The notes under the pieces: model-generated | Database searches by the model: none | What the model was told of the DNA's origin: nothing | Seen by the model: the letters and a program-made list of their open reading frames with translations, nothing else | Program-made: the position numbers and the translations under genes | DNA from: Aciduliprofundum boonei T469 | GTDB taxonomy: Archaea; Thermoplasmatota; Thermoplasmata; Thermoplasmatales; Aciduliprofundaceae | Direction of reading: 5' to 3' | Assembly (NCBI RefSeq): GCF_000025665.1 | Contig: NC_013926.1 | Span: 1,140,001 to 1,172,000 of the forward strand | DNA length: 32,000 nt | Shown: piece after piece, positions 1,840-20,421 of the stretch | Position numbering within the stretch: position 1 is the stretch's first letter | How the letters are laid out: the number at the start of each line of letters is the position of its first letter

Positions 1840-3582
1840 CTAAAATTCCTCTGCGGGACATTTTCCAAGGCAGTCCAAGCAATGTATACATTTCTCTTCT
1901 TTTATTGCTATCTTTCCATTTTCAAGATATAAAGCCCCAACAGGACATCTCCCAAGACATATACCGCATCCAATGCACTCCTGAGAGCGTATTATTAAAG
2001 ATTTTGCTTCTTTTACAAAATTCCCAGAAACTTCTAATTTTTTATCATACCTAAAAGAACCTTCAGGTAAGGCATAGAGAATATTGAGCATTCTTTCTTC
2101 ATCAATTTCTCTATCAAACCTTACCTCTTTCCACTCATCGCCCACAAATTCCACATGAAGTTTATCTCTCTCTACCTTTATGCCTCCTGCCCACCGCGGT
2201 GGGTTTTTCCAGCGCCAAGAAGATTGAACCCATTTTTCAGAGATCCCATTTTCTTTCGCATAATCTTTTAAATACGAGAACCATCCATCTATGCCATCAA
2301 AGTATTTTCCCACAATTTCAAAATCTGCAAGATCTGAAGATGGACACAAATAGCATCCAATTCTTGTCAACCCTCTCTTATACCATACATTTATCGGTGC
2401 CCTCTTCCAGAGTATATAAAGCCAAACTTCTAATGAACTCCAGTTTTGAATGGGACTTGCAGATAATTGATTTGGCACCCATTCGTTTCTCCAAATATTT
2501 CCCTTTCTCATTCTCTCCATACTTTCATATCTTCTCTGTCCTATGAGTGTGAGTAATCCAGATGGATAATTTTCAAGTATATACTTGGTTGTTGGGCCAA
2601 GTTTAGTTACTTTGCAGCACCATCTATAATCTCGTCCAGGAGGACCAAAATGCTCTAAAGATCCCCAAAACGCATTTCCTGCATCTATTCTATCCATTTT
2701 TATCCCGTATTTTTTCTCAATTTCATTTACATATTCAACAGTCTCTGGAAGCTCTATGCCAGTATTCAAAAAGAATGTATGAAAATCCATGCCACTTTTC
2801 AAAGCAAGGAGAAGAACCGCTAGAGAATCTTTTCCACCACTAAATGAAACAGCTAAAGGTAAATCGTATCTCATTTTTGTTTCTCTAATGAATTTTACAG
2901 CCCTATTTTCTATATTTTCCAGATGCTGTATGTTAGCTTCTATAACATCATCCAATTCTGCTTGCTTTCTTTTTTCCCAGTTTCCATAGCCACTGTGCCT
3001 AATCTTAACAGCCATCCCATGGGTAGATTTGCACATATCTTCCGAATCCATTCTCGCTATACCAACAGCTAAAGCCCTACCAGCAGAGTCCCGTATTATT
3101 ACTTCATCCCCGTTCTTTATGCCCTCTGCGCAATCTTTCACTCCCGGGGCCATTAAATTCTTTCCACTCAAAATAGGTTCTATAGCGCCATCATCGATTT
3201 CAATCCATCCCTTGGACATGCAACTGTTCAATAGATAAGCCCCATCCATTCTAAGTGCAATTTTAAATTTTTTTTCCTCTATATCATATCTCAAGTTTCC
3301 TATTACCTTTCCATCAATTATAATTTCATCCATTCTGTCGTAATGTGGAACTCTATTGAAGAGCACAAAAAAATTTTCAAGTTTGCAACCAAATGCCCTT
3401 TTTAATGCATCATTTAAAATCTCCAAATCTCCCTCAAATCCAATTCTAACCTCCCCTGGTGGAGTTATAGAAACTTTCCTACCCTCTTTCCCACATTTGC
3501 TGCAATGCTTTGTAAGAATTGGAACATTACATTTATCACACCAGTAAAACTTGATTTTTCCAAGATAAACAGGTTTTCCCAT
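1840..3582 (-). CDS. Zn-ribbon / PUA domain / PAPS-reductase-like PP-loop ATPase / 2x[4Fe-4S] ferredoxin fusion protein (probable RNA-modifying enzyme)
   Basis: 580-aa ORF. N-terminal CDKCNVPILTKHCSKCG zinc ribbon. PUA-like segment (GDEVIIRDSAGRALAVGIARM). PP-loop SFSGGKDS followed by PAPS-reductase-family motifs (YRWCCK, IGQRRYES). C-terminal CIGCGICLGRCP and CIHCLDCLGKCP ferredoxin motifs. Confidence 0.85.
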   Translation of the reverse strand: MGKPVYLGKIKFYWCDKCNVPILTKHCSKCGKEGRKVSITPPGEVRIGFEGDLEILNDALKRAFGCKLENFFVLFNRVPHYDRMDEIIIDGKVIGNLRYDIEEKKFKIALRMDGAYLLNSCMSKGWIEIDDGAIEPILSGKNLMAPGVKDCAEGIKNGDEVIIRDSAGRALAVGIARMDSEDMCKSTHGMAVKIRHSGYGNWEKRKQAELDDVIEANIQHLENIENRAVKFIRETKMRYDLPLAVSFSGGKDSLAVLLLALKSGMDFHTFFLNTGIELPETVEYVNEIEKKYGIKMDRIDAGNAFWGSLEHFGPPGRDYRWCCKVTKLGPTTKYILENYPSGLLTLIGQRRYESMERMRKGNIWRNEWVPNQLSASPIQNWSSLEVWLYILWKRAPINVWYKRGLTRIGCYLCPSSDLADFEIVGKYFDGIDGWFSYLKDYAKENGISEKWVQSSWRWKNPPRWAGGIKVERDKLHVEFVGDEWKEVRFDREIDEERMLNILYALPEGSFRYDKKLEVSGNFVKEAKSLIIRSQECIGCGICLGRCPVGALYLENGKIAIKEEKCIHCLDCLGKCPAEEF

Positions 3583-3888
3583 TTAAACCACAAGAGTTAA
3601 AACTTTCTTTCTCAGTATTTTAACTATATTTTCTATTTCCCCAAATTGCTCAGCAAGTTCTAGTAAATCGTCTTTAATATTTCCCTCTATCACAGCCCCA
3701 TTAGGTGTAGGTCTTATAAATCCATTATTCTCTAAAACAGCTAAAGAGCGTCTTACTTCATGCTCCTCAAGACCCAAAATTTGGGACATTCTTATTATAC
3801 CTACAGGTTGCTTTTTCATAACAACCTCTAATACCCTTATATGTCTAGATAACAATTCAAGCTCGTCATAAATTCTCTTTGTAAGCAT
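3583..3888 (-). CDS. Small winged-helix DNA-binding protein, abutting the PAPS-reductase-like gene
   Basis: The track ORF starts at TTG 3930, but ATG 3888 is preceded by GAGGTGA plus 5 nt, a strong SD. HTH-like segment GIIRMSQILGLEEHEVRRSLAVLENNGFIR. Its stop codon directly abuts the downstream gene start at 3582. Confidence 0.7.
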   Translation of the reverse strand: MLTKRIYDELELLSRHIRVLEVVMKKQPVGIIRMSQILGLEEHEVRRSLAVLENNGFIRPTPNGAVIEGNIKDDLLELAEQFGEIENIVKILRKKVLTLVV

Positions 3889-3987
3889 TCCGTTCACCTC
3901 CGCACATTGCAAAAGGTGTAAAATTTCCAAGAATAAAAAATTTTATATCCACCATGCTTATACGCCTTTGCAACAGACAAATATGAT

Positions 3988-4062
3988 GCTCCGGTGGTGT
4001 AGCACGGCCAAGCATTAGGGGCTCTCAACCCCTCGACCCGGGTTCAAATCCCGGCCGGAGCA
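3988..4062 (+). tRNA. tRNA-Glu (anticodon CUC)
   Basis: Hand-folded cloverleaf. Acceptor GCTCCGG/CCGGAGC. Anticodon stem AGGGG/CCCCT with loop CT-CTC-AA (anticodon 4024-4026). T arm CCGGG-TTCAAAT-CCCGG. Discriminator A. No encoded CCA. 75 nt. Confidence 0.9.
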
Positions 4063-4190
4063 CTAAGAAGCCCCTTTCTTAGAAAGAAAAAGTGCTTCAT
4101 CCCAAAAGAAACTCATTCTTAGGTTGCTGGAGATGATAAGAACCCGCTGGAGGTTCTTAGAAAGAAAGGGGCTTCATCTCGAAAAGAAAC
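4063..4190 (+). repeat. Repeat-rich, hairpin-forming element directly 3' of tRNA-Glu, related to the tRNA-Gln intron
   Basis: 14-bp perfect inverted repeat GAAGCCCCTTTCTT (4067-4080) / AAGAAAGGGGCTTC (4162-4175) enclosing 81 nt. Two 37-nt imperfect direct units (4076-4112 and 4154-4190). TTCTTAG occurs three times and GCTGGAG twice. The first 11 nt (GAAGCCCCTTT) and GTGCTTCATCCC match the intron at 23438-23467. Confidence 0.6.
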
Positions 4191-4247: not shown

Positions 4248-4709
4248 ATGCTTTCTGACAGAGATATAGCCACGGCAATGAAAAAAGGAGAGATTGACAT
4301 AAAAGGTTTTAGAGAAGAAAATATGACTCCAAACGGGTATGATCTAACGATTGGAGAAATAATGATTCCGAGCAAGAATTTGCATATAAAGGAAGGAGAG
4401 ATAAAAATCCCATCTTTAACAAGATTCCTGGTGGGGAGTAAAGAGTATATAAAATTAGATGAAAATCATGCAGCGCAAATATGGATAAAGAGCAGGTGGG
4501 CTAGAAGGGGTGTTTTAGCATCCTTTGGAGTTGTTGATGCAGGATTTGAAGGAATACTAACAATGGGTGCCTTTGCTACAGAGGAAATAGTTATAAAAAT
4601 AGGAGATAAGTTTGCACAAATAAGCTTCTTCGACCTAAAATCTCCTGCCCACAAAACATATGCTGAAAGGTCAGGTAATTATCAAAAACAAAAAAGTATA
4701 AAGATATAA
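4248..4709 (+). CDS. dCTP deaminase/dUTPase-fold protein, short form (probable dUTP diphosphatase)
   Basis: 153-aa ORF. MLSDRDI...NGYDLTIGE and GVVDAGFEGILTMG motifs are typical of the trimeric dCTP deaminase/dUTPase family. Its length fits the short archaeal dUTPase-like members. Confidence 0.75.
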   Translation: MLSDRDIATAMKKGEIDIKGFREENMTPNGYDLTIGEIMIPSKNLHIKEGEIKIPSLTRFLVGSKEYIKLDENHAAQIWIKSRWARRGVLASFGVVDAGFEGILTMGAFATEEIVIKIGDKFAQISFFDLKSPAHKTYAERSGNYQKQKSIKI

Positions 4710-5438
4710 TTAGGCAGCAATGAGCATGTTTGCATAAACTTCCTCTACTATAGTATCTACCTCTCTTAGATACATCTCCCTGAATTTTTTCTCTATCTCT
4801 CTTCTCGTTACATTAGTTATTCTTTCCACAAAATTTGAAATCTCATCGTACATTATTTTATATGCTTCAGATATTTTTACACTTGGTTTCTGCAGGAGTA
4901 TATCACTATCAAGCACTATTGATTTTGTCACAAGGGCTTTTACTTTATTCACGGTCTCTATTGCAATTTCTCTTCTCTTTCCCTCAATGCTAAATGGAAG
5001 TATCATTATTGCTACGATTGGCTTGTCAAATCTCTCGTTAATTATCTTTGCCGTTTCTAAAATTCCACCTGTACCAGTACCACCTCCAAGAGCAGCAAGA
5101 AGTACAATCACATCAGCATTATTTGCTTCCTCCAATATCCATGCCTTGTTTCTGCTCATTATGTATTCTGCCACTTTCCTTTCCCCATTGGTATCCCTAT
5201 GCTCGCCAAGAACATCCTTACCCATGTGCATCTTTTTATCCGCATCTATGCTTTCTAATCCTTTCTCATCTGTGTTTATAGCTATGACCCTGAGTCCTTC
5301 AATTTTTTTATTGGCTATGAAAGATGCTATTCTCCCAGCACCTCCACCGAAGGCAAACAGTCGAACATCCGGTCTTATGCTAAATTCTTCGATTAACAGC
5401 TCTTCTATATTCTTTCTAACTTCATCAATATCGCGCAT
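4710..5438 (-). CDS. FtsZ/tubulin-superfamily GTPase-domain-only protein (no C-terminal domain)
   Basis: FAFGGGAGRIASF (T1-like), AINTD, tubulin signature GGGTGTG, and PFSIEGKRR, followed by the IVLDSDILL helix. The ORF ends ~60 aa later. ATG 5438 has GGTGAT plus 3 nt upstream, whereas the track start 5462 overlaps the upstream stop as ATGA. The stop codon abuts the convergent dUTPase-like gene. Confidence 0.8.
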   Translation of the reverse strand: MRDIDEVRKNIEELLIEEFSIRPDVRLFAFGGGAGRIASFIANKKIEGLRVIAINTDEKGLESIDADKKMHMGKDVLGEHRDTNGERKVAEYIMSRNKAWILEEANNADVIVLLAALGGGTGTGGILETAKIINERFDKPIVAIMILPFSIEGKRREIAIETVNKVKALVTKSIVLDSDILLQKPSVKISEAYKIMYDEISNFVERITNVTRREIEKKFREMYLREVDTIVEEVYANMLIAA

Positions 5439-5458
5439 TCCATCACCTTCTGGCATTC

Positions 5459-5839
5459 TCATTTATAAGGCAAAGGGTTCTTCTCCTTCTCACCCTCACT
5501 TAATCTTAAAGATGATAGCCCCCGGGTGTATGATTTTAAAATTCTGGCAAGCTCCCCGTTGGATACCAGAATCCTAAGCACATAAGTTATTAAATCCCCC
5601 ATATCCTTGAAATATTTGTAATCTACATAGTCCTCAAGTACACTCAAGATCCTGTCTTCCATCTCCACCTTTAGCCCAGAGTCCTTCAATAATCCCCTAT
5701 CTGCCATTTTTATGTAGGACATCAAGGCATTTCTTATGAACTCAGAGCGATTTCTGTACTCTGGATGTCTAGCTAGAAAATCATCAATCTCATCAAGCTC
5801 CACGTCTGACAGCCTAATAGTCAGTCTGGTACCATTCAT
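5459..5839 (-). CDS. Ribbon-helix-helix (CopG/Arc-type) DNA-binding protein with a C-terminal extension
   Basis: The N-terminus TRLTIRLSDVELDEIDDFLARHPEYRNRSEFIRNALMSYI has the beta-strand/helix/helix pattern of RHH proteins. GGGTGA plus 4 nt precedes the ATG. It lies immediately upstream of the FtsZ-like gene on the same strand. Confidence 0.7.
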   Translation of the reverse strand: MNGTRLTIRLSDVELDEIDDFLARHPEYRNRSEFIRNALMSYIKMADRGLLKDSGLKVEMEDRILSVLEDYVDYKYFKDMGDLITYVLRILVSNGELARILKSYTRGLSSLRLSEGEKEKNPLPYK

Positions 5840-6067
5840 ATATTCACCCTTTGCCCACTGGGTAAGGAAGATATGTACTTAAACATATATAAAGTTTTTG
5901 ATTTTAACATAAAAAAATTTTATTTTTATGACAAAATTAATTTTTAAACGCTTGCATAGAACAAATTATCAAATAAATCATATTAAAAATGTATGACGAG
6001 ATATGACAAAATATGCCGTTTTGTATAACAAGTTTTGCTCTTTGGCATACTTTTCGGGTTTTTTGTC

Positions 6068-8824: not shown

Positions 8825-8898
8825 GCCGCCGTAGCTTAGTTGGCTGGAGCGGCCGGCTGTTAACCGGCAGGTCGCAGGTTCGAATCCTGCCGGCGGCG
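8825..8898 (+). tRNA. tRNA-Asn (anticodon GUU); integration target
   Basis: Hand-folded. Acceptor GCCGCCG/CGGCGGC. D stem GCTT/GAGC. Anticodon stem GCCGG/CCGGC with loop CT-GTT-AA. T arm GCAGG-TTCGAAT-CCTGC. Discriminator G. 74 nt. Confidence 0.92.
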
Positions 8899-8900
8899 CT
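8887..8900 (+). repeat. attL core (CTGCCGGCGGCGCT) overlapping the last 12 nt of tRNA-Asn
   Basis: Exact 14-mer, identical to 22183-22196. Confidence 0.75.
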
Positions 8901-8970
8901 GCTTTGAATTTATCTGCACCCATCAATAATTTTTTAGAGCTAGTGTTTTACGGGTTCTGTTTGAATTTGG

Positions 8971-9044
8971 ACGCCGTTTGGCGTGCTATAAAGTTTTCGG
9001 TTACCCCCTCAAAAATGCAGAGATCATGCGCCGCCGATTGGCGT
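8971..9044 (+). promoter_or_regulatory. Paired GC-rich palindromes (CGCCG-WTT-GGCGT) flanking a TATA-like box; candidate operator/promoter of the element's left-end operon
   Basis: CGCCGTTTGGCGT at 8972-8984 and CGCCGATTGGCGT at 9032-9044, exactly 60 bp apart. CTATAAAG lies at 8986-8993. The GGAGGTGG SD of the first element ORF follows at 9059. Confidence 0.4.
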
Positions 9045-9070
9045 CTGTATCGAAAAAGGAGGTGGTATGA

Positions 9071-9310
9071 ATGAAGAGGCCATATAAGTTGGAGATTTTG
9101 TGGAGCACGGGAGATTTAACGGAGAGTGGAATAACGGAAATAGAGAAAGAGCTTATAGGGGAGTATGGCTCTCTTTACATACTAACGAGGTACGAACTTA
9201 AAGGAGAGCCAAATGCTAGGCCAGTGAGCTATCAAGTGTGGGATAAGGAAGATAATCCGTTGATACCAATAGATACACAGCCCAGAGCGGAGGAATCAGC
9301 ATCTGCATGA
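9071..9310 (+). CDS. Hypothetical protein (79 aa), first gene of the element
   Basis: ORF with GGAGGTGG a few nt upstream of the ATG. No recognisable motif. Confidence 0.5.
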   Translation: MKRPYKLEILWSTGDLTESGITEIEKELIGEYGSLYILTRYELKGEPNARPVSYQVWDKEDNPLIPIDTQPRAEESASA

Positions 9311-9362
9311 TGTACTACATAGGGATGTTGGAAAAGGATGAAGTAGCACTGGAAGATGAACT

Positions 9363-10703
9363 ATGAGTACAGTGACAAATTCCTTGATTGAAGTGTTTCG
9401 TAATGGTGTTGCACTTACACCAAAAGAAGCTTTTTACATACTTCAAAGTAAAGGGATTAAAACAACATACAAGTCAGTGAGCAAGATTCTCTCTAGGCTT
9501 TATTACAGGGGAACATTAGAGCGTGCTGGAGGCAAATATATTTTTTCCTCACAAGGGCGACAGGTTGTTTCAAGCAAGGCGACATATGGAGACAATTTAA
9601 AGGTAGAGGGCGACAGTCAGAAAATGCAATATATTTCTGATTTTCCAAGCAGATATGTTTCAAATACAGTAAAATTGAAACGAAACGGCATAAGAAGTAA
9701 GCTAATGAAGAGATTTCTGGCCATATTGATGAACAACAACATAGAATTTTTTGATTCTAACAAGTTTTATCAATCTTTGCAGTCCAAGTATTGTTTCCAT
9801 CTCAATAGAAGCACTTATAGAGTGATATTACATAGGTTGAAACTCCGTGGTTTTCTAAGTTTCAGATTCAAAAGGTACTATGTGAATATGAATAAGGTGA
9901 GAGATTTCTTTAGCGTTTCAGATTTTGAGATTGGAGGTGCGAGTACCCATAGCATACCAAAAAATGGTGAAAATTACAAATTCCCCAAATACAAGGGTAC
10001 CCAACCATCCGTTTCAGAAATATTATCCGTTCGTGTCAGCGAGCATGCCCCAAGAGTGGATATAAAGATAAGCAAGTTCAGAAAAGAGATCGTAGAAGAG
10101 AAGTACAATCTTAAGGTGATAAATCCTAGAGATCCTTCTGGAAAGATGCGCTTCAAAGGAAAGCATATCAATGCCATAATAACGAAGAATGGGTATGTCA
10201 TGATAATTCCAAAAGATTCACAATGGCTAGAAGAGGTAAGGGAAGTTTTTGGAGAAGAGGCAGCTGCCAGTGCAAAGCTAAAGGGAGCTATGAAGCATAA
10301 GGAGTATGCGCTAGGAGATTTAGTCAAGCTTTACAAGTCAGAGAGGTTTGGAGCCCAGATAGATTATTCAGAGTTTAATGGGGACATAGGATTTCAAGGA
10401 GATGCGGAAAAAGTTGAGGTTGCGGATGAGATTTTTAGGCAGGAGATAATGAGCAAGGTATCTCAGAGCGCTTATCTGGCCGATATAATAGTTGATTTAG
10501 ATAGGACCTCAGAAGAGTTAAAAGAATTACTCAAAAATACGAGGGAAGAGGTCATGGCCCAAGTATTATTGAATTCTCAAGCGGTAAGTGCCATACGGGA
10601 ATCTGCGAGGGAGATAAGCAATGTTATGCGTCAATTTATAGATATATTAAAAAATGCCCAGAACGGAATGTTTTCTGGAGGAGAGGTTGAGGGTTATGCA
10701 TGA
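9363..10703 (+). CDS. Hypothetical 446-aa protein with two N-terminal wHTH-like segments and a helical/coiled C-terminus
   Basis: LTPKEAFYILQSKGIKTTYKSVSKILSRLYYRGTLER and NRSTYRVILHRLKLRGFLSF look like winged-helix recognition units. The C-terminal ~100 aa are heptad-like and rich in charged residues. No enzyme motif recognised. Confidence 0.6.
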   Translation: MSTVTNSLIEVFRNGVALTPKEAFYILQSKGIKTTYKSVSKILSRLYYRGTLERAGGKYIFSSQGRQVVSSKATYGDNLKVEGDSQKMQYISDFPSRYVSNTVKLKRNGIRSKLMKRFLAILMNNNIEFFDSNKFYQSLQSKYCFHLNRSTYRVILHRLKLRGFLSFRFKRYYVNMNKVRDFFSVSDFEIGGASTHSIPKNGENYKFPKYKGTQPSVSEILSVRVSEHAPRVDIKISKFRKEIVEEKYNLKVINPRDPSGKMRFKGKHINAIITKNGYVMIIPKDSQWLEEVREVFGEEAAASAKLKGAMKHKEYALGDLVKLYKSERFGAQIDYSEFNGDIGFQGDAEKVEVADEIFRQEIMSKVSQSAYLADIIVDLDRTSEELKELLKNTREEVMAQVLLNSQAVSAIRESAREISNVMRQFIDILKNAQNGMFSGGEVEGYA

Positions 10704-10935
10704 GCTAAAGAGATTTCAGATAAAGAGAATTATAGAGGAGGCTATGAGGATCACGAATGATATAACTCTGAGAGAGGATGTAAAGCTTGAGGACATTTAC
10801 AAGATAGCAGAGGCGGTTAAGGGAGAGAGATTAACAAAGAGGGAGAAGCTGATGATAGCAGGCATTGTGAAAAGGCACTATTCAACATATAGGGAGTTAG
10901 AGGATAATGAGTTGAAGGTTGTGGTGATGGTGTAG
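10696..10935 (+). CDS. Hypothetical protein (79 aa), translationally coupled to the upstream gene
   Basis: ATG 10696 overlaps the upstream stop (ATGCATGA) and is preceded by GGAGGAGAGGTTGAGGG. The track start at 10654 is inside the previous gene. Confidence 0.5.
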   Translation: MHELKRFQIKRIIEEAMRITNDITLREDVKLEDIYKIAEAVKGERLTKREKLMIAGIVKRHYSTYRELEDNELKVVVMV

Positions 10936-11080
10936 GAGCCAAATATAATCTATGCAACAGCATATAGTCTTTCTGCTTCTGCAAGAACTTCATTAGCAAT
11001 TGCATTTATCTTTCTATAATCTATTTTCATATTTGATTTTTCTAAAAGCACTTCTTTTACTATTACTCTTATTCTCTCTC

Positions 11081-12313
11081 TTACGTTCTCCTTTTTATTC
11101 CAATCTGCAATAGATCTTCTGGAGTAAGAATTTCAACATTTCTCATACCCTTAATTTTTCTGCGAGTAAAGAATATCTTTCTGCAGTAAAAATTCTCGGT
11201 TTTCTTCTCAAAGCTTTCTATGTCCTTTTTTGTTGCTTTTCCCCACTTAACCTCTCCAACTATTATGGGCTTGTTCCTTTTAGTTATCAGCATATCTATT
11301 TCCCTGTTTGCTTCCTTGAGGTATTCAACTCTACCTCCGTAGAGCTCTGCAAAAAGATCTGCAACGAATCTCTCTATAGCTAGGTTGTGAAGCTTCTCCA
11401 GTGTTGGTTTTACTTCATCGTAAGTGATTTCACGGGATAAGTCGTATCTAGAATCTAAGTAGTAAAACATCTTGGCTGGTTCTGAATCTATCTCGTAAAC
11501 ATACCTCTTCTTTCCGTACCTTTTTATCTCCCTCAAGATTCCCATATCTCTGAGGTTCTTTATGTAGGGAAGTACTGAAGAGCTCGCCGGGGATTTGATT
11601 ATTTTTCGTGAATATAATATGGAAGCAATTTCACGATAATCTAAATAACCTTCTCCTATCAGAGAAATTATAGAGTAATATGTCTTCGTTAACTCTCTCT
11701 CCTCCTCAGTGAATATTTCTCCTATGAGTGCTGGAATTGCGTACGGCAGAATGTTAAGTAGCGAGGGAAAGAATTTTTCAGGTGAGGTAAAAAGAGGAAT
11801 TGTCCAGGGATCACGGAGATAGGGGGCAACTTCAATAGCCTTCTCTGGAGAGAGATAAGAAAGAAGAGAATTAAGAATATCTTTTGCTCTTATTAATCCA
11901 AGGCGATAGGGATATATTATTCCCAAAAATGGTGAGTTCTTGGATAGAAGCTTTGATACAACGCTCATGCTTGAGCCGGAGAGTATAAGCCTGCCAGAAG
12001 GATGCACACTTGCAATATCGTCCCATACTTCCTCGGGCAATCTCTGAAACTCGTCAATTACCACAGTTTTTCCATCCACAAGGCCCCTCTTAACCTTTTC
12101 AATCATGCCCCCCGTATCTATTTTTTCATTCCCATTTTCCATTCTAATCCTGCCATCTCTCCGAATGAAAAAATAAATGTCATAATTTAGAAAATTCTTT
12201 ATGAGAAATGTTTTTCCAACTTTCCTCCTGCCAAAGAGCAGAATCCAGCCACCCATGCTTTTTATCTCCTCCGCCTCACTTCTGTTAACCACTATTCTTG
12301 AACCCATATTCAT
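11081..12313 (-). CDS. P-loop ATPase of the archaeal ATPase/DUF234 type with a C-terminal PD-(D/E)xK-like motif
   Basis: 410 aa. Walker A LLFGRRKVGKTF, Walker B VVIDEFQ, a central wHTH-like region (SSSVLPYIKNLRDMGILREI), and C-terminal REIDMLITKRNKPIIVGEVKWGK (D...E-V-K). Confidence 0.8.
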   Translation of the reverse strand: MNMGSRIVVNRSEAEEIKSMGGWILLFGRRKVGKTFLIKNFLNYDIYFFIRRDGRIRMENGNEKIDTGGMIEKVKRGLVDGKTVVIDEFQRLPEEVWDDIASVHPSGRLILSGSSMSVVSKLLSKNSPFLGIIYPYRLGLIRAKDILNSLLSYLSPEKAIEVAPYLRDPWTIPLFTSPEKFFPSLLNILPYAIPALIGEIFTEEERELTKTYYSIISLIGEGYLDYREIASILYSRKIIKSPASSSVLPYIKNLRDMGILREIKRYGKKRYVYEIDSEPAKMFYYLDSRYDLSREITYDEVKPTLEKLHNLAIERFVADLFAELYGGRVEYLKEANREIDMLITKRNKPIIVGEVKWGKATKKDIESFEKKTENFYCRKIFFTRRKIKGMRNVEILTPEDLLQIGIKRRT

Positions 12314-12618
12314 GAATCATGGTTCACAAATATTTAAGGGTTGTGATTTTGTGTTAGGCAATTTTGCTACGAAGTTTGAGAATAAATAGAAAGCTTTAAA
12401 GTAAAACCTTCGTTAATTTGTAAATATTTCCGCAATAGCAAGATAAATGAATAAATGGATAAATGATTTCGTTTTGGCCTAAAACGACACTATTAGAGCC
12501 CATAAATGCCTTTTCAAAGCTATGGGGTATATAAATAAACGGGCAGTTTTAGTATCGTTTAAAATAAACGAAACTAAAGATAAATCTCTCCAGGAAACTG
12601 AGTTTGACCGTAGAGCTT

Positions 12619-13380
12619 TCACCATAGCAGGTTCTTTTCCCTCTCCATCTTCCTTTTCCACTTCGCAACTTCTTCCTTCGTCACCAGCCAAGCACCCAAA
12701 TACAGATTGTAGATAGAACCATCCTCGTAAATCACATTGTTTCCATCCACCTTGTAGTGCAGTCCCGGTACCTTTGGAAAATCTATCTTCTCCTCCTTAT
12801 CTTCTTTAGCTGGAGATTCTTCAACCTGTGAGCTCTGTGTCTGGACAGCATCTGCAATCATGTCCAGCCTGTTCTTTATCTCCTCCAACTCTGGATAAAG
12901 CTCCGTTGCCACTGCCATCCCAACTCTGTCCTCTATGTTGAGAATCTCATTCGTTTTCCTGTAGTACTTCTCTCGGACATAGAGCTTCAGAGCTTCTCTC
13001 ACGATAGAGGATAAATTCTTGCCTCTCATTCTTGCTATGGACTCTATATCTTCCTTCAACTCACTGCTTACCTTTACCCGTATCTCTGGCATACTTCCCG
13101 CCATTTTTATCACCGCTTTTTCTCTCTTTAGAACCTCTATATAAAATTGTCTATGGGAGCGGAGTTCAATTTTTGCTGTATAGAACACATTCTCTTTGCA
13201 ATTTGCATTTTTGAAGTGGAAAATTTGCCAAATTTTTAGTGGAATTCTGGAAAACCCTTCTACAACATTATTTCCTTTCAATTTCTCCACTGTTTGGTGG
13301 AATTTCTCCTCCCTGAAATACACTTTTGGGATGTTGAAAATTCTTCGTTCTTTTCTGCTTCTCCTTACAAGGCACTTCAT
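12619..13380 (-). CDS. Ribbon-helix-helix domain protein (start uncertain: 13380 or 13104)
   Basis: The RHH segment MPEIRVKVSSELKEDIESIARMRGKNLSSIVREALKLYV lies mid-ORF. ATG 13104 has GGTGATAAAA upstream. ATG 13380 sits 24 nt downstream of a TTATTTATA box, which fits a leaderless start. No stop codon lies between the two. Confidence 0.6.
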   Translation of the reverse strand: MKCLVRRSRKERRIFNIPKVYFREEKFHQTVEKLKGNNVVEGFSRIPLKIWQIFHFKNANCKENVFYTAKIELRSHRQFYIEVLKREKAVIKMAGSMPEIRVKVSSELKEDIESIARMRGKNLSSIVREALKLYVREKYYRKTNEILNIEDRVGMAVATELYPELEEIKNRLDMIADAVQTQSSQVEESPAKEDKEEKIDFPKVPGLHYKVDGNNVIYEDGSIYNLYLGAWLVTKEEVAKWKRKMEREKNLLW

Positions 13381-13978
13381 TTTGGTGGAGCTCGCTTATC
13401 TTGCTATAAATAATAAATATTTTATAAGGGAACTCCACAGAATTGCGTTGAATTGCTAGCAGGATTAGATTTACACGGTGTCTTCTGGATGTACATTGTT
13501 TGTATATCCCTACGAGTATATTTCGGGAAATGATGTGCTAAGTCAATAGTATATAAAGCCTCTTTTTCAGAATTGCAAGGAAAGTATGTATTATAATACT
13601 TCAACTTACAATTTATTAATTGATTGATTAATTAATTAACTCCAAAAATAAAATAATAAGGGGAGAGATGGTATCTCACCTATAATATCTCCGTTTATTA
13701 AAAAAGAAATTATTAATTCTGGCGGGGGAGGTTTAAAATTTGGGATTGCTAGAGAAATTAGTTCTATGTTTGTTCTCTGCGATGTGGCATTTTCTTCTAA
13801 ACTTAGTGGAGCTAAATGTAATGAAGTTAGTAAAATGAAATCTTTAAAGAGATGTGGAAAGAAGGTATGTTGAGATGTAATATTACAAACGTAATTAAAG
13901 TTAAAATAAATTTTATAATAGCTTATTTCGTAAAGTATTTATAATATAAGTTGCATATCTTTTGCCGTTGCATAGAAG

Positions 13979-16900
13979 GTGGTGGAAACGAAGAGTAGTG
14001 GATTTGTGAAGGTATTGGTGATTTCCTTGGTTCTTTTAATGATTTTCAGTGGGCTTGGAGTTGTTATGAATGCCACGGGAGTTAGTACTCATAAAACATC
14101 TTTAACTTCTAATGAAGCAAATGTTGTGAAGGCGCATATACTTGATACATCCTTCTCTGATTTCAAATTCAAGAAAATTAGCCAAGGAGATATAAATAAA
14201 ATGTTAGAGCTGAGAGAAAAGATAATTGGGAGATTAAATGAAAGTGATGGTGGAAAATCATACCATAACTTACCTGAATATAATATGGAAAATTCTGCAG
14301 TTCGTATGGAACATCTATCGTATATGAATACCCGCATAGATTTTAATAATAATGCCACGCCCATGATAGATGGACATGCTACAGGATTGATCTTACCCGA
14401 TAGAAAAGAGCTTGAGAATTTGATTGGACACAAGATGATAATCGGTTTGAATACAAAGGTAAGAGAGCCAAGCAGTGTAAGGTGGGACTTAGATCCGCAT
14501 TTTCCACCGGTGGGAGATCAAGAATGGCAAGGATCTTGTACAGCTTGGGCTGTAAGCTACTATCAAAACGGGTTTTTGCAGAGAATGATTTACAACTGGA
14601 CAGATGACTCTCTCGGTCACCTTATGAGCCCTTCTTGGACTTACAACAAGGCAAATTTTGGAGAGGATGGAGGGAGTACTTTTGAAGGTAATATTGAGGT
14701 GATTGAGAGTGTTGGAGATGCCACTCTGGCCAACATGACTTATAATCCTTCAGATTATGTCTCTTGGGGAGATGAGAATGCTTGGAGAGATGCACCCAAG
14801 CATAGAATTGGGAATTATTACCTTGTTTATTTTGGAAACGATAGTGGAATTGCAACTATAAAAGAGCTATTGCAAGAAGGTTATTTGGTTACATTCGGTA
14901 TAGATGCCTCTCAATTTGGTAATGGCTTTGCAGATGGAAACTACATAATTTCTTCGCAGGAATACAATTCTAACTCTCCTAATCATGCTCAAACAATCGT
15001 GGGATATGATGATAACATAACAGATGATGGAGATGTTGGAGCGTTTAGAGTTGTAAATTCATGGGGTACAGACTGGGGAGATCATGGATTTTACTGGATT
15101 ACATACAAAGCCTTGGAGGAAAAAATATCTCAGGGTTGGCCCTATGCTCGTGTTCTAGTTCCACTCTCTCAACATCCATATAATCCAAAGCTACTTGCCA
15201 TTTGGCATTTTAGCAATCCTGGACCGAGAGATGCACCTGTAAACATAACAATAGGCTCTGAAAACTCAAGTTTATATAGAACTCCAATCTGGAATGGAGG
15301 AAATCACTATTTTCCAAGTTTTATGGCTCTTGATATTACTGAGTTCTACAATGAATGGGTAAATTCGAGCTATAAGGATAAGTTCTACCTAAAGATCGGA
15401 TCGAGCAGCAGCGGCTCTAGCACAGTGGACTCTTTCAAGATAGACTACTATCCATACGGATATAAATACTTGTGGCAAAACTCCACAGAATCTCGAGATG
15501 TTCCTGCCATCACTCCTTTAATAATAAAATCCGCTGAATTCATGCCTAGTGAATACTTTCCTTACATATATATAAATCCTATACATACTATTTTTCATAA
15601 ATACTATCATTTAAATGTGACTGATGTTATTTTAGGTAATGCAGGTAATTCCACAGATGCTTTACTTTTTTATGCTGAAGCGACAAATGGATGGTCTGTT
15701 CATCCCTCTTATAAAAAAATAGTCTTACGTTCTAATGAAATTCAGAATATTGAGCTGAATATAACACCGCCAAACAATGTTAAGTTAGGTGACAAGACAA
15801 CAATAAAAATAAAAGTTATTTCACAAAATGATACATCCAAATCATATATGTTAAATATAAAAGAGATCTACCTTTCAAATATAATATACATCGATGGAGA
15901 TTCAGATTTTAAATATCAAGCAAAAATTTTTGGCTGGCCTGGAAATGGTTCTGAAGATAACCCATACATTATATCTGGTCATAAAATAGATGCTAGTAAT
16001 ATAAGCTTTGGTATTTATATCCGCAATACTAGAGTTCATTTTATTGTAACTGACTGTGAAATATATCATAGCAGTGCTTATTACTCTTGGCCCACCCCAT
16101 ACGGTGAAGGAGTTTGGCTTTATAATGTATGGTATGCCAAAATATACAACAACATCTTTCATAATAACGGAAATCATACACTTCTAAGAGGTGGCGATGG
16201 TATATTCTTACAATACTCCCTCTATTCCCTAGTTTTCAACAATATAGTTTATAATAATTGGAATGGAATTACATTGTATTACTCTTATGAAAATATAATA
16301 AAAAGTAACATTATTAAAAATAATGGAGAATCAGGCATATCTATTTTATCTTCAGGTAAAAATAGCTTATATCATAATAATATGACTAACAACGGAATCT
16401 TTTTATATGGGGGATTTAATACATATATAACACAGAAAATTCCTATCAATAATACAATAAATGGCAAATCCGTATTTTACTATATAAATAGTAATCACAA
16501 TTTTACAGCTCCACCAAATATTGGTGAAATTATTTTAGGAAATGTTAGTAATTTAAAAATAGAAAATACAACCTTACTAGGCCTAAACTATGGTATTCAA
16601 ATAGCCTACTCATCTAATGTTACAATAATAAATTCAACCGTAGAAGGTATCAGTATTCAGGGTTCAAATAATATAACAGTCGACAACACACATTGTGAAG
16701 GTGGTATAGACGGTGTAGTAACTATGGGATCTTCAAAAATTTTGATAAAAAACAGCACTTTTAAAAATAAGCAGATTGGAGTGTACTTTTTTGATACTGA
16801 AAAAAGTATTGCAGTAAACAATACATTTTATGATTGTGAGAGTGGAATTGAAATAGTTTTCTCTAGTAATAATTTAGTTAAAAATAATCATATTGTTGGA

Positions 16901-17707: not shown

Positions 17708-17863
17708 GGTTCAAAACCACAGATTGCAAGGAAATTAAGCTTTACAATATAATCTTGCATATTCTCTCACATAGACAATTTAAAATGACGCCAGAAACAA
17801 ATCTTTATGATTAGCTTTGAATCTATTGAGGGAAAAATATATTCCATGAGGAAATAACAAATA

Positions 17864-17878
17864 GAAAAGTTTAAAATA
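17864..17878 (+). promoter_or_regulatory. BRE/TATA promoter (GAAAAG-TTTAAAATA), 21 nt before ATG 17900
   Basis: A/T-rich TATA box preceded by a purine-rich BRE-like hexamer. The spacing is typical of leaderless archaeal mRNAs. Confidence 0.45.
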
Positions 17879-17899
17879 GAGTGGGGAGATGTATAAATA

Positions 17900-18106
17900 A
17901 TGAGCAAGGAGATCAAGGACAAGAACTATGAGTTCTACATAAATGCGGATTTGAGTGAATATGCTGGGAAGTGGATTGCGATAGTGGATGGCAAGGTTGT
18001 GGCCAGTGGGGAAGATCCTGAGGAAGTATATATGAAAGCAGAGAAAAAAGGTGGTAAGGACATATCCCTAGCGTATGTGCCAACTGATGATCTCTTGATT
18101 TTGTAA
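17900..18106 (+). CDS. Small DUF5678-like protein (68 aa)
   Basis: GKWIAIVDGKVVASGEDPEEVYMKAEKKG is the signature I recall for the small archaeal DUF5678 family. The function is unknown. Confidence 0.55.
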   Translation: MSKEIKDKNYEFYINADLSEYAGKWIAIVDGKVVASGEDPEEVYMKAEKKGGKDISLAYVPTDDLLIL

Positions 18107-18130
18107 ATTATTCTTCCTGCTATATCGTAA

Positions 18131-18145
18131 GAAAACTTTAAAATA
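18131..18145 (+). promoter_or_regulatory. BRE/TATA promoter (GAAAAC-TTTAAAATA), 20 nt before ATG 18166
   Basis: Near-identical to the 17864-17902 cassette, including AGATGTnTAAATA just before the ATG. Confidence 0.45.
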
Positions 18146-18165
18146 TAAGCAAGAGATGTGTAAAT

Positions 18166-18321
18166 ATGGAAGATGTGGGCACGATAGAGAGATTGTACAA
18201 GAAGCTGGACGAGGAAGAGCCAACTGAGGAGGAGCTAAAAATAATAAAAGAGGGTAGAGAAGAGATAAATAAAGGGCAATATGTAAAGCTTGAAGATGCT
18301 TTGGAAATTTTAGATGAGTGA
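18166..18321 (+). CDS. Small acidic antitoxin-like protein (51 aa; below the track's 60-aa cutoff)
   Basis: ATG 18166 to TGA 18319-18321 gives MEDVGTIERLYKKLDEEEPTEEELKIIKEGREEINKGQYVKLEDALEILDE. Its C-terminal pattern is like the aRelB-like protein at 19935 (..G..V.LE....L). It has its own TATA box. Confidence 0.45.
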   Translation: MEDVGTIERLYKKLDEEEPTEEELKIIKEGREEINKGQYVKLEDALEILDE

Positions 18322-18455
18322 AAATAGCTAGTAATCGCTCATAGAAGGAAAATACATTAACTCATCAATGGTAGAAAGTTATAAAGAAAAATTTCCCACC
18401 GGAGTAAGACAAAAATGTTAAATATGTCTTAGTTGTATAGAACAAATTGGTTGAA

Positions 18456-19739: not shown

Positions 19740-19897
19740 CATGATAAGTTAGGTCTAAGAGCTTTCAAAAACATCCATATTTTGTCCTCTTTGAAGGAAA
19801 ATTTGCCCGATATTGAAGTTTCTCCTTGAGGGTGGTATAATTACACCTGTAAAGGTGAAAAACGCTCTCAAATCAAAAAATTTGTAAAAATCCCTTA

Positions 19898-19912
19898 GAA
19901 AAGATTAAAATA
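19898..19912 (+). promoter_or_regulatory. BRE/TATA promoter (GAAAAG-ATTAAAATA), 22 nt before ATG 19935
   Basis: Same architecture and spacing as the promoters at 17864 and 18131. This supports ATG 19935 rather than GTG 19920 as the start. Confidence 0.45.
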
Positions 19913-19934
19913 CAATAAGGTGATAGTAAAGGTG

Positions 19935-20419: not shown

Positions 20420-20421
20420 GA

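What the first reader, a model, noticed from the sequence alone, without database searches (positions are those of the whole stretch)
4710..5839. RHH DNA-binding protein coupled to a minimal FtsZ/tubulin GTPase-domain-only protein
Seen in sequence: the 242-250-aa protein has the T1-like GGGAG loop, AINTD, the tubulin signature GGGTGTG, the PFSIEGKRR segment and the following helix. It then terminates. There is no FtsZ C-terminal domain and no recognisable T7 synergy loop (NxDxxD-type), and the T3 region looks degenerate. Its stop abuts the convergent dUTPase-like gene, so a recently split-off C-terminal half is not nearby. The gene lies 20 nt downstream of an RHH protein gene on the same strand, or overlaps it as ATGA if the longer start is used. 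Established knowledge: cytomotive segregation systems pair a small DNA-binding adaptor with a filament-forming NTPase, for example ParR (RHH) with ParM, or TubR with the tubulin-like TubZ. Inference: this could be a hybrid-style DNA-segregation or positioning module, or a GTP-binding regulator that caps or sequesters true FtsZ/CetZ filaments because it lacks the catalytic T7 face.
Basis: partly seen in the sequence, partly recalled or inferred. Interest (0 to 1): 0.65.

Follow-up and report, generated by a model that had tools for sequence, protein, structure and literature searches.

The report
Half-FtsZ paired with double RHH regulator
An Aciduliprofundum chromosome carries a conserved two-gene operon for a duplicated ribbon-helix-helix DNA-binding protein and an FtsZ that keeps only its nucleotide-binding half, apparently an undescribed offshoot of the archaeal cdrS-ftsZ2 cell-division operon that may act as a natural cap on FtsZ filaments.

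Summary
Window 4710-5462(-) encodes a 242-250 aa FtsZ homologue with only the N-terminal GTPase domain plus one long C-terminal helix. It has no T7 loop and no C-terminal domain. Window 5459-5839(-) encodes an RHH protein.

- **Not a truncation:** about 25 sequence clusters are all 241-250 aa, and dN/dS is about 0.05.
- **The pair is conserved:** more distant short FtsZ-like proteins of other Thermoplasmatota (Methanomassiliicoccaceae-type) sit in unrelated gene neighbourhoods. Each still has a homologous 113-139 aa RHH gene directly upstream.
- **The partner is a tandem RHH:** its first repeat is closest to CdrS.
- **The GTPase domain is closest to FtsZ2**, not FtsZ1.
- **Operator-like repeats:** 10-bp-spaced GTCATA repeats lie upstream of the operon promoter, and related repeats occur in the remote loci.

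The locus is chromosomal and vertically inherited, so a plasmid-style segregation module is unlikely. The best reading is a derived cdrS-ftsZ2-type operon. In it, an autoregulating RHH factor is paired with a "top-face-only" FtsZ2 derivative that cannot polymerise head-to-tail. That protein probably modulates or caps canonical FtsZ filaments; this step is inferred. I found no description of this pair in the literature I searched.

The parts
4710..5462 (-). Short FtsZ-like gene. It encodes the GTPase domain, helix H7 and a conserved C-terminal helical extension. The longest ORF is 250 aa; the probable true start is the ATG at 5438-5436, giving 242 aa.
   Evidence: ORF. Pfam Tubulin domain only. 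Family of 241-250 aa proteins. AF2 model with pLDDT 87.8. Foldseek match to the FtsZ N-domain. GGTGAT at 5447-5442 precedes the third ATG. dN/dS 0.045-0.064.
5459..5839 (-). Tandem ribbon-helix-helix protein, 126 aa. RHH repeat 1 covers about residues 4-45, RHH repeat 2 about 55-95, followed by a conserved C-terminal helical tail.
   Evidence: RHH_1/RHH_8 and CdrS/NikR/ParR-type hits on repeat 1. Internal repeat by hhalign: 92% probability, E 7e-7. Family of 139 clusters of 113-139 aa. hhalign to a haloarchaeal CdrS-like protein: 89% probability, E 2e-6. dN/dS 0.024.
5992..6017 (-). Distal operator-like array: three hexamers with a 10-bp period (GGCATA-N4-GTCATA-N4-GTCATA).
   Evidence: This is the only place in the 32 kb that matches GTCATA-N4-GTCATA with up to 1 mismatch (0.09 expected by chance). 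The same array lies upstream of the RHH gene in L001, L007, L008 and L018.
5927..5937 (-). Proximal operator-like site ATTTTGTCATA, about 35 nt upstream of the TATA box. It is an exact 11-nt repeat of 6002-6012.
   Evidence: It is conserved in L001, L003 and L007. Related TGTCATAC and TTGTCCGACA repeats abut the TATA box in the remote loci L019, L021 and L010.
5885..5894 (-). Putative archaeal TATA box (CTTTATATAT) of the operon. It lies about 50 nt upstream of the RHH start codon.
   Evidence: Read from the sequence. It is invariant across five aligned loci, including the most distant one, L005. Its function is inferred.
5844..5850 (-). Shine-Dalgarno-like AGGGTGA in front of the RHH start codon.
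   Evidence: Read from the sequence. Conserved in L001 and L003. Inferred.
4683..4696 (-). Oligo-T tract (CTTTTTTGTTTTT) just after the short-FtsZ stop codon. It is the likely archaeal terminator and lies inside the 3' end of the convergent dcd gene.
   Evidence: Read from the sequence. Inferred.

Best explanation
This is a conserved, chromosomal two-gene operon of Thermoplasmatota. It is related to, and probably descended from, the archaeal cdrS-ftsZ2 cell-division operon.

**Gene 1.** It encodes a single-chain tandem RHH protein whose first repeat is CdrS-like. The two repeats are expected to fold into one pseudo-dimeric RHH unit that reads an asymmetric GTCATA-type hexamer. Several copies would bind the 10-bp-spaced repeats upstream of the operon's own TATA box and so set operon expression. 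The site positions, roughly -65 to -155 from the predicted transcription start, resemble those of the activator CdrS. The protein may have other targets elsewhere in the genome.

**Gene 2.** It encodes an FtsZ2-derived protein that keeps the nucleotide-binding N-domain and H7. The T7 loop and the GTPase-activating C-domain are replaced by a conserved amphipathic helix. It therefore still offers the 'top' (nucleotide) longitudinal face but has no 'bottom' (T7) face. It cannot build a head-to-tail protofilament on its own.

**Most likely action.** It docks with its top face onto the T7-exposing growing end of canonical FtsZ filaments, or onto a free FtsZ subunit, and blocks further addition. This would make it a dosage-controlled modulator or cap of the division ring. 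The C-terminal helix would serve as the site for dimerisation or partner binding.

**Shown:** domain content, conservation of both genes and of their pairing, purifying selection, FtsZ2 and CdrS affinities, and the conserved upstream repeats.

**Inferred:** DNA binding to those repeats, nucleotide binding, and the capping or modulating action.
For: **Family.** All 25 close clusters are 241-250 aa. More distant short forms of 231-291 aa exist, some annotated as Methanomassiliicoccaceae. The short forms that were included in the NJ tree group together, except P0077 and P0110.

**Pairing.**
- All four partner-family genes looked up (L009, L010, L019/L020, L021/L022) lie directly upstream of a 231-242 aa Tubulin-domain-only gene on the same strand.
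- The flanks differ between lineages: CobA-SCP2/dcd, IleRS/NAPRTase and NAD kinase.
- Contig-length matches link further pairs.

**Selection.** dN/dS is 0.045-0.064 for the FtsZ-like gene and 0.024 for the RHH gene. The C-terminal extension is as conserved as the GTPase core, 0.70 against 0.73 mean column identity.

**Structure.** AF2 pLDDT is 87.8. The model shows the FtsZ N-domain plus a helix at 197-249.

**FtsZ2 affinity.**
- With the T5-H5 indel masked, every short member scores 15-30 bits higher on the HMM of the '16-spacing' archaeal clade than on the FtsZ1 or bacterial HMMs.
- That clade includes haloarchaeal ftsZ genes. One of them (L024) has a CdrS-type RHH gene directly upstream.
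- BLAST scores agree.
- The T5-H5 spacing itself matches FtsZ2.

**CdrS affinity.**
- CdrS (NF058555) is the top NCBIfam hit for partner-family members P0317 (E 1.7e-7) and P0137 (E 1.3e-4).
- hhalign to a CdrS-like protein gives 89% probability.

**Operator.**

**Canonical FtsZ is available as a target.** A published survey lists five FtsZ-family proteins and one SepF for Aciduliprofundum sp. MAR08-339 (PMC8178401 Supplementary Data 1).

**Growth polarity.** The T7-exposing bottom end is taken as the growing end of FtsZ filaments. Bottom-interface mutants are toxic, and bottom capping by MciZ shortens filaments (PMC8936486).
Against: - No experiment or complex model links the short FtsZ to canonical FtsZ.
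- In the Aciduliprofundum clade the top face is itself remodelled. T3 GAGG becomes H.D., the T1 Asn becomes Arg, the T6 Asn becomes Ser, and the H7 Asp that reads guanine aligns with an invariant Tyr. Canonical GTP sensing, and docking onto an FtsZ T7 loop, may therefore be altered or lost in this clade.
- The partner scores far below the CdrS equivalog cut-off (16-31 bits against 100). It has a different architecture: tandem and about 120 aa.
- The FtsZ2 affinity of the window protein itself is modest in pairwise BLAST (53-55 against 40-54 bits).
- The tree is a crude NJ tree on long branches.
- Descent from cdrS-ftsZ2 is parsimonious but not proven.
Confidence: 0.5

Rival explanations
1. This is a DNA segregation or positioning module. 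The RHH protein would be a centromere-binding adaptor on the upstream repeats, in the way tubC-tubR-tubZ or parC-parMR are organised. The short FtsZ would be the cytomotive or DNA-tethering NTPase, with its C-terminal helix binding the adaptor.
For: - The gene order (repeats, then adaptor, then tubulin-like NTPase) mimics tubC-tubR-tubZ.
- Iterated 10-bp-spaced repeats lie upstream.
- A ParR model appears among the weak RHH hits (E 8e-4 to 0.14).
- The NTPase has a conserved C-terminal helix that could act as a docking element.
Against: - The locus is in chromosomal core synteny and is vertically inherited.
- No plasmid carries a relative of either protein family. The only plasmid hits are ordinary haloarchaeal ftsZ2 genes.
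- The protein lacks the T7/C-domain face needed for a polar filament.
- There are only 3+1 repeats, at positions typical of a transcription-factor operator next to a TATA box. In the remote loci the repeats abut the TATA box.
- Both proteins are closest to CdrS and FtsZ2 rather than to TubR/TubZ. TubZ-like RepX scores E 0.006, against 1e-16 for FtsZ.
Confidence: 0.12
2. The two proteins form a nucleotide-switched transcription-factor complex with no link to FtsZ filaments. The short FtsZ would be a GTP- or GDP-sensing co-regulator that binds the tail of the tandem RHH protein and tunes its DNA binding. This would couple gene expression to guanine-nucleotide or energy status.
For: - Co-occurrence and co-orientation are strict across lineages.
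- Both proteins carry clade-specific but conserved C-terminal helices that could have co-evolved.
- The remodelled T3 and H7 nucleotide contacts in this clade suggest a changed ligand or sensing mode rather than a polymerisation role.
Against: - I know of no precedent for a tubulin-fold domain acting as a transcriptional co-regulator.
- The less derived family members keep near-canonical FtsZ2 top-face loops (KGEGAKGD T3, GGAGCN T1). That fits retained FtsZ-FtsZ contacts.
- There is no direct evidence that the two proteins interact.
Confidence: 0.2
3. This is a toxin-antitoxin-like cassette. The truncated FtsZ would be a dominant-negative poison of cell division, and the upstream RHH protein would be its autoregulating antitoxin.
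For: - The layout resembles a type II TA module: an RHH gene first, a closely spaced second gene, and operator repeats at the promoter.
- ParD-type antitoxin models appear among weak hits for a related CdrS-like RHH protein.
Against: - The operon holds a fixed chromosomal position with vertical inheritance across an order-level clade and beyond.
- Purifying selection is very strong, and the 'antitoxin' evolves more slowly than the 'toxin'.
- I saw no association with mobile elements. The integrated element in the window is elsewhere, at 8.9-22.2 kb.
Confidence: 0.04
4. The gene is a recently truncated ftsZ pseudogene or a gene-calling artefact.
For: None beyond the short length.
Against: - About 25 clusters share the same length and a conserved C-terminus.
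- dN/dS is about 0.05.
- There is no room for a split-off C-terminal half, because the stop abuts the convergent dcd gene in all loci.
Confidence: 0.01

Closest known systems
cdrS-ftsZ2 operon of Euryarchaeota (CdrS RHH transcription factor co-transcribed with FtsZ2; Darnell et al. 2020, PMC7439475; Liao et al. 2021, PMC8406309)
   Same: - A small RHH gene lies directly upstream of, and co-oriented with, an FtsZ-family gene.
- RHH repeat 1 is closest to CdrS among the NCBIfam models for two partner-family members, and hhalign gives 89% probability.
- The GTPase domain is closest to the FtsZ2 clade.
- The predicted binding sites lie upstream of the promoter, like the CdrS sites at -41 to -110.
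   Different: - The FtsZ lacks T7 and the whole C-terminal domain, and ends in a conserved helix.
- The RHH protein is a tandem duplication of about 120 aa rather than the roughly 60-residue single RHH domain that the 61-position CdrS model describes.
- It scores far below the CdrS equivalog cut-off.
- In this clade the T1, T3, T6 and H7 nucleotide contacts are remodelled.
Canonical FtsZ (TIGR00065; structures 1FSZ, 1W5A)
   Same: The N-terminal GTPase fold, the GGGTGTG signature, NTD, the PFxxEG T5 loop and H7 are all present. The Foldseek rmsd is 1.8-3 A over about 190-200 residues.
   Different: There is no T7 synergy loop, no C-terminal domain and no disordered linker with a C-terminal peptide. 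TIGR00065 scores 74 bits against a cut-off of 295.
FtsZ end-cappers and interface mutants (MciZ; bottom-face FtsZ mutants; Du et al. 2018 as cited in PMC8936486)
   Same: The predicted functional logic is the same: a molecule that occupies one longitudinal interface of FtsZ and cannot be extended blocks the growing end.
   Different: - MciZ is a 40-aa peptide that binds the bottom face of the FtsZ monomer.
- The capper proposed here would itself be an FtsZ paralogue that uses its top face.
- Nothing has been tested experimentally for this family.
TubZRC and ParMRC plasmid partition systems
   Same: The layout is similar: upstream DNA repeats, then a small DNA-binding adaptor gene, then a cytoskeletal-fold NTPase gene. 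RHH adaptors such as ParR and ParG are known in partition systems (from my own knowledge).
   Different: - This locus is chromosomal and not on a mobile element.
- The NTPase has only one longitudinal face.
- Sequence affinity is to FtsZ2 and CdrS, not to TubZ, TubR, ParM or ParR.
FtsZl-1 family (Makarova & Koonin 2010, PMC2875224)
   Same: It is a divergent FtsZ-like GTPase domain without the canonical FtsZ C-terminal domain, and its ability to polymerise has been questioned.
   Different: FtsZl-1 proteins are long, with a coiled-coil and an alpha-helical C-domain. They lack T6-H7 and sit in membrane-remodelling operons. The protein here is about 240 aa, keeps T6-H7, and is paired with an RHH gene.

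Membership tests
Canonical FtsZ (TIGR00065 / Pfam Tubulin + FtsZ_C) | N-terminal tubulin/FtsZ GTPase domain with the GGGTG(T/S)G signature | tested here: met
   PF00091 E 4e-20, residues 25-190. GGGTGTG at 126-132. Fold match.
Canonical FtsZ (TIGR00065 / Pfam Tubulin + FtsZ_C) | C-terminal GTPase-activating domain (FtsZ_C, PF12327) | tested here: not met
   No FtsZ_C hit. The model ends in a single helix, 197-249. Foldseek aligns only about 190 of the 300+ target residues.
Canonical FtsZ (TIGR00065 / Pfam Tubulin + FtsZ_C) | T7 synergy loop (N-x-D-x-x-D) after H7 | tested here: not met
   No N.D..D motif follows the signature loop in any family member.
Canonical FtsZ (TIGR00065 / Pfam Tubulin + FtsZ_C) | Score at or above the curated equivalog cut-off | tested here: not met
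   74.2 bits against a cut-off of 295.2.
Canonical FtsZ (TIGR00065 / Pfam Tubulin + FtsZ_C) | GTP-dependent head-to-tail polymerisation | not testable with these tools
   This needs biochemistry. The absence of the bottom interface argues against it.
cdrS-ftsZ2 operon | RHH gene immediately upstream of, and co-oriented with, the FtsZ-family gene | tested here: met
   The window has a 20-nt gap or an ATGA overlap. The same arrangement holds in every locus inspected.
cdrS-ftsZ2 operon | The RHH protein is a CdrS equivalog (NF058555 at 100 bits or more) | tested here: not met
   The window protein scores 15.8 bits and family members 18-31 bits. CdrS is nevertheless the top-ranked model for P0317 and P0137.
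cdrS-ftsZ2 operon | The FtsZ gene belongs to the FtsZ2 clade | tested here: inconclusive
   The GTPase domain scores 15-30 bits better on the FtsZ2-type HMM than on the FtsZ1 or bacterial HMMs, and BLAST agrees. There is no robust maximum-likelihood phylogeny, and the protein is not full length.
cdrS-ftsZ2 operon | The RHH protein regulates transcription of division genes | not testable with these tools
   Only conserved operator-like repeats upstream of its own promoter are seen.
TubZRC / ParMRC-type partition system | Encoded on a plasmid or prophage that it stabilises | tested here: not met
   The locus sits in conserved chromosomal synteny. The RHH protein has no plasmid hit, and the FtsZ-like protein hits only haloarchaeal ftsZ2 genes.
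TubZRC / ParMRC-type partition system | NTPase with both longitudinal interfaces that forms dynamic filaments | tested here: not met
   The C-domain/T7 face is absent. Filament formation itself was not assayed.
TubZRC / ParMRC-type partition system | Centromere made of iterated repeats bound by the adaptor | tested here: inconclusive
   A 3+1 set of GTCATA repeats lies upstream. The number and position fit an operator at least as well as a centromere.
Type II toxin-antitoxin module | Patchy, mobile distribution with rapid turnover | tested here: not met
   The position is fixed and syntenic, dN/dS is 0.02-0.06, and the locus is retained across lineages.
FtsZl-1 (Makarova & Koonin 2010) | FtsZ-like N-domain lacking T6-H7, followed by a coiled-coil and an alpha-helical C-domain | tested here: not met
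   T6 and H7 are present and aligned to FtsZ. The protein is only about 240 aa. The family is described.

The most novel reading that the evidence does not exclude
The tandem RHH protein, bound at GTCATA arrays on the chromosome, directly recruits the short FtsZ through the two proteins' conserved C-terminal helices. This would create a DNA-anchored, nucleotide-switched FtsZ cap. Such a complex would couple the chromosome to the division ring, working as an archaeal nucleoid-occlusion or chromosome-positioning device built from a half-FtsZ.
Probability: 0.1. Interest if true: 0.85.

Novelty: new variant of a known kind. Interest (0 to 1): 0.6.

Why it matters
Archaeal FtsZ-based division is poorly understood. 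Only FtsZ1, FtsZ2, SepF, PRC-barrel proteins, CdpA and the regulator CdrS are known. No negative regulator or end-capper of archaeal FtsZ has been described in the papers I found.

A conserved, naturally 'one-faced' FtsZ2 derivative has exactly the architecture that bottom-interface mutant work in bacteria predicts to be a potent growing-end cap. Its own CdrS-like regulator is encoded beside it. This makes a concrete, testable candidate for such a regulator.

The pair also shows that the cdrS-ftsZ2 operon has diversified: the RHH gene has duplicated into a single-chain pseudo-dimer and the FtsZ has lost its C-domain.

Finally, genome surveys that count 'FtsZ' copies probably include non-polymerising members. 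One example is the five FtsZ-family proteins listed for Aciduliprofundum sp. MAR08-339.

Tried and rejected
- **Labelling FtsZ1 and FtsZ2 clades by gene context.** Four look-ups on full-length hits were uninformative. P0119 turned out to be bacterial (ftsA-ftsZ), and P0090, P0057 and P0044 had no informative neighbours. I did not use it for fold search.\n- **Pfam scan of RHH repeat 2 alone.** It gave nothing. The repeat is supported only by profile-profile self-comparison.\n- **Literature searches for a described GTPase-only FtsZ or RHH-FtsZ pair in Thermoplasmatota.** They found none. The library excludes most subscription journals, so absence is not proof.\n- **P0015, 357 aa.** It looked like a longer homologue. 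It is a Cas3-HD segment joined to the last 187 residues of a mini-FtsZ on a 1.5-kb contig, probably a chimeric assembly.\n- **Pseudogene and TA readings.** I rejected both on conservation and synteny.
Full report
**Organism and setting.** The window is from an Aciduliprofundum (DHVE2, Thermoplasmatota) chromosome. Two Aciduliprofundum MAG contigs carry the same gene at 90-93% protein identity. GC content is about 37%.

The two genes of the finding lie on the minus strand. They sit in a co-oriented run MscS(+) / CobA-CobO / SCP2 / RHH / short FtsZ. This run converges on a dCTP-deaminase gene. An integrated element is present elsewhere in the window (see the last section), but the finding lies outside it, in core chromosome.

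- ORF 4710-5462(-) has FGGGAGR, AINTD, GGGTGTG and PFSIEGKRR.
- Pfam finds only the Tubulin/FtsZ GTPase domain (E 4e-20) and no FtsZ_C.
- The FtsZ equivalog model scores 74 bits against a cut-off of 295.
- PDB sequence matches are all FtsZ (best E 1e-16). They stop at about residue 217 of the query.
- An AlphaFold2 model built on a 52-sequence alignment is confident (pLDDT 87.8). It shows helix H0, the six-stranded GTPase domain, and one uninterrupted helix from 197 to 249.
- Foldseek aligns about 190 columns to FtsZ N-domains at 1.8 A rmsd and nothing beyond.
- No N.D..D motif follows the signature loop.

In the alignment to M. jannaschii FtsZ, several nucleotide contacts are changed:

| Element | Canonical FtsZ | This protein |
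|---|---|---|
| T3 | GAGG | H-R-D-T |
| T1 | Asn | Arg |
| T6 | Asn | Ser |
| H7 | Asp (guanine-reading) | aligns with an invariant Tyr |

The stop codon abuts the stop of the convergent dcd gene.

The RHH stop overlaps the first ATG of the FtsZ-like ORF. The third ATG (5438) is preceded by GGTGAT and matches the start of most homologues. The real product is therefore probably 242 aa, with a 20-nt intergenic gap.

**Not a truncation.** The 5.8-billion-protein search returns about 25 clusters at 46-99% identity, all 241-250 aa. Scores then drop sharply, from 237 to 96 bits, to other FtsZ-family proteins.

- The C-terminal extension (218-250) is as conserved as the GTPase core, 0.70 against 0.73 mean column identity. 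It is amphipathic.
- dN/dS against two close relatives is 0.045-0.064. For the RHH gene it is 0.024.
- The one longer 'homologue' (P0015) is a Cas3-HD/mini-FtsZ chimera on a 1.5-kb contig.

**A wider family of half-FtsZ proteins.** Below the close family sit other short FtsZ-like proteins of 231-291 aa. Some are annotated as Methanomassiliicoccaceae or Thermoplasmata.

- An exhaustive profile search puts many 250-290 aa proteins at the top of its list, and none of those examined has a T7 motif.
- In a crude NJ tree of the GTPase domain, the short forms group together, apart from full-length FtsZ. P0077 and P0110 are the exceptions.
- The less derived members keep near-canonical T1 and T3 loops (GGAGCN, KGEGAKGD). 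The Aciduliprofundum clade is the most derived.

**The RHH partner and the conservation of the pair.** The partner is more conserved than the FtsZ-like protein: 84% against 62% identity on the same 437-kb contig.

- Within the Aciduliprofundum clade the whole block CobA-SCP2-RHH-FtsZ/dcd is syntenic, down to 46% FtsZ identity. On its own, that could be simple vertical inheritance.
- The decisive test came from remote relatives. The short FtsZ-like genes P0048 and P0098 lie in quite different neighbourhoods (IleRS/NAPRTase, NAD kinase). Each still has a 116-120 aa gene directly upstream on the same strand.
- Those upstream proteins are clear homologues of the window RHH protein: RITLRMG...DDYL..HPE..RSQFIR.AL.
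- A profile of the partner finds 139 clusters, all 85-169 aa and mostly 113-139 aa.
- Two further members on long contigs were looked up. Both are followed about 105 nt downstream by a 231-232 aa Tubulin-domain-only gene.
- Matching contig lengths tie several more pairs together.

**The partner is a tandem RHH.** The family alignment shows two strand-helix-loop-helix units. Profile-profile comparison of the N-half against the C-half aligns them in register over 37 columns, with 92% probability and E 7e-7.

A single chain should therefore form a pseudo-dimeric RHH unit with two different ribbon strands. That fits an asymmetric recognition sequence. The monomer AF2 model was of low confidence and I did not use it.

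**Operator-like repeats.** The 228-nt spacer upstream of the RHH gene contains these elements:

- a TATA box (CTTTATATAT, 5885-5894), invariant across all five aligned loci;
- an exact 11-nt repeat, TATGACAAAAT on the plus strand, at 5927-5937 and 6002-6012;
- a 10-bp-period triple array, GGCATA-N4-GTCATA-N4-GTCATA, at 5992-6017.

GTCATA-N4-GTCATA with up to one mismatch occurs nowhere else in the 32 kb, where 0.09 matches are expected. The array is found at the equivalent place in L001, L007, L008 and L018.

The remote loci also carry TGTCATAC or TTGTCCGACA repeats upstream of their RHH gene, often abutting the TATA box. The invariant Thr and Arg of ribbon strand 1 across the whole family fit a conserved specificity. 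That the RHH protein binds these repeats is an inference.

**Relation to what is known.** An RHH gene co-transcribed with an FtsZ gene is the hallmark of the cdrS-ftsZ2 operon. That operon is reported as widely conserved in Euryarchaeota (PMC7439475). In it, CdrS is a transcription factor that binds 41-110 nt upstream of transcription starts (PMC8406309).

I tested both halves of the comparison.

*FtsZ half.*
- Full-length archaeal hits split by a one-residue indel in T5-H5. One type has 17 residues, like M. jannaschii FtsZ1 and bacterial FtsZ. The other has 16, as in PFNVERAR...KAExGL.
- The 16-type is found in the haloarchaeal megaplasmid ftsZ genes L023 and L024. L024 has a CopG-family RHH gene directly upstream, and that gene's best NCBIfam hit is CdrS. 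I therefore take the 16-type to be FtsZ2.
- All short proteins have the 16-type spacing.
- With that segment masked, they score 15-30 bits higher on the FtsZ2-type HMM than on the FtsZ1 or bacterial HMMs.
- Pairwise BLAST agrees. The difference is strong for the less derived short forms and weak for the window protein.

*RHH half.*
- CdrS is the top NCBIfam model for two partner-family members (E 1.7e-7 and 1.3e-4), but it is far below the equivalog cut-off.
- hhalign to the CdrS-like protein gives 89% probability.

The most economical reading is a derived relative of cdrS-ftsZ2, in which the RHH gene duplicated internally and the FtsZ2 lost its C-domain. It is probably a paralogue rather than a replacement. 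A published survey lists five FtsZ-family proteins and one SepF for Aciduliprofundum sp. MAR08-339 (PMC8178401 Supplementary Data 1). A full-length 16-type FtsZ also exists in a Thermoplasmatales MAG.

**How it most likely works.**

*Shown:* the short protein keeps the nucleotide-binding 'top' surface and lacks the T7 'bottom' surface.

*Established knowledge:* the FtsZ active site is completed by the T7 loop of the next subunit. Incoming subunits add with their GTP-bound top face to the T7-exposing end of the filament. Bottom-interface mutants are toxic, and bottom capping by MciZ shortens filaments (PMC8936486).

*Inference:* a top-only FtsZ paralogue can dock onto the growing end of a canonical FtsZ filament, or onto a free subunit, but it cannot be extended. 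It would then act as a cap or sequestering agent whose level is set by the co-encoded RHH regulator.

The conserved C-terminal helix replaces the C-domain. It is a candidate surface for dimerisation or for binding the RHH tail, SepF or another partner.

One caveat applies. In the Aciduliprofundum clade the T1, T3, T6 and H7 contacts are remodelled. Nucleotide sensing and docking may therefore differ from the ancestral state in this clade.

**Rivals.**
- *Segregation module.* It is disfavoured by the chromosomal core location, the lack of plasmid relatives, the single longitudinal face, and the operator-like number and position of the repeats. It is not excluded.
- *Nucleotide-switched co-regulator of the RHH protein.* It remains possible and would explain the remodelled pocket.
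- *Toxin-antitoxin reading.* It conflicts with the fixed synteny and very low dN/dS.
- *Pseudogene.* It is excluded.

**Novelty.** Reviews and surveys mention 'non-canonical' archaeal tubulin-superfamily proteins (PMC9856176) and FtsZl-1/2 (PMC2875224). I found no description of a GTPase-domain-only FtsZ2 derivative paired with a tandem RHH protein in Thermoplasmatota.

The library searched is incomplete, so this is a provisional statement. I rate the finding as a new variant of a known kind, the cdrS-ftsZ2 operon. Interest is moderately high, because it offers a concrete candidate for a natural FtsZ end-capper or regulator in archaea.

**Seen in passing.** A roughly 13.3-kb element is integrated at tRNA-Asn. 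It is bounded by a repeat of the tRNA 3' end at 8884-8905 and 22180-22201, and a tyrosine integrase gene lies at its far end.

Noticed in passing
window 8825-22201: An integrated element of about 13.3 kb sits at tRNA-Asn (8825-8899). The tRNA 3' end, ATCCTGCCGGCGGCGCTGCTTT (8884-8905), is repeated at 86% identity at 22180-22201, right after a tyrosine integrase gene (21101-22168). The cargo includes two AAA_14 ATPases, one of them with a DUF4143 domain, a 253-aa protein with an RHH_1 domain (12619-13380, minus strand), and a 1242-aa beta-helix/NosD/papain-like/fn3 protein (13979-17707). A 27% GC stretch lies at 16-17 kb. In the related locus L007, MoaA is followed by glutamate dehydrogenase after a gap of only about 0.4 kb, so it has no such insert.
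   Followed up: partly
window 27413-28243 (+): A DDE_Tnp_1 transposase gene (E 9e-23) lies between an EamA transporter gene and an Lhr-type helicase gene. It is probably an insertion sequence.
   Followed up: no
proteins P0140 (826 aa) and P0142 (744 aa): The best non-short hits of the mini-FtsZ profile are single polypeptides that hold two complete FtsZ units in tandem. Their T5 loops are FtsZ2-like (PFRLERAR and PFNLERAR in P0140). This covalent double FtsZ architecture is unusual, and I did not pursue it.
   Followed up: no
protein P0015 (357 aa, 1.5-kb metagenome contig): A Cas3-type HD domain is joined in frame to the last 187 residues of a mini-FtsZ. This is most likely a chimeric assembly rather than a real fusion.
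   Followed up: partly
L024 2009-3703 (Salinibaculum sp. KK48, 560-kb plasmid) and L023 2465-3655 (Haloarcula sinaiiensis pHsi204): Haloarchaeal megaplasmids carry extra ftsZ2-type genes. The Salinibaculum copy has a 111-aa CdrS-like RHH gene directly upstream, so this is a plasmid-borne copy of the cdrS-ftsZ2 pair.
   Followed up: partly
window 3583-3930 (-) and tRNA-Glu 3988-4063 (+): A small 115-aa winged-helix protein, with weak CggR_N, TrmB and Lrs14-type hits, lies next to a PUA-PAPS-reductase-ferredoxin fusion gene (1840-3582). It is uncharacterised and its neighbourhood was not examined.
   Followed up: no
window 25019-26446 (-): A TIP49/RuvB-like AAA+ ATPase (PF06068, E 5e-142) is encoded in this Thermoplasmatota genome.
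   Followed up: no
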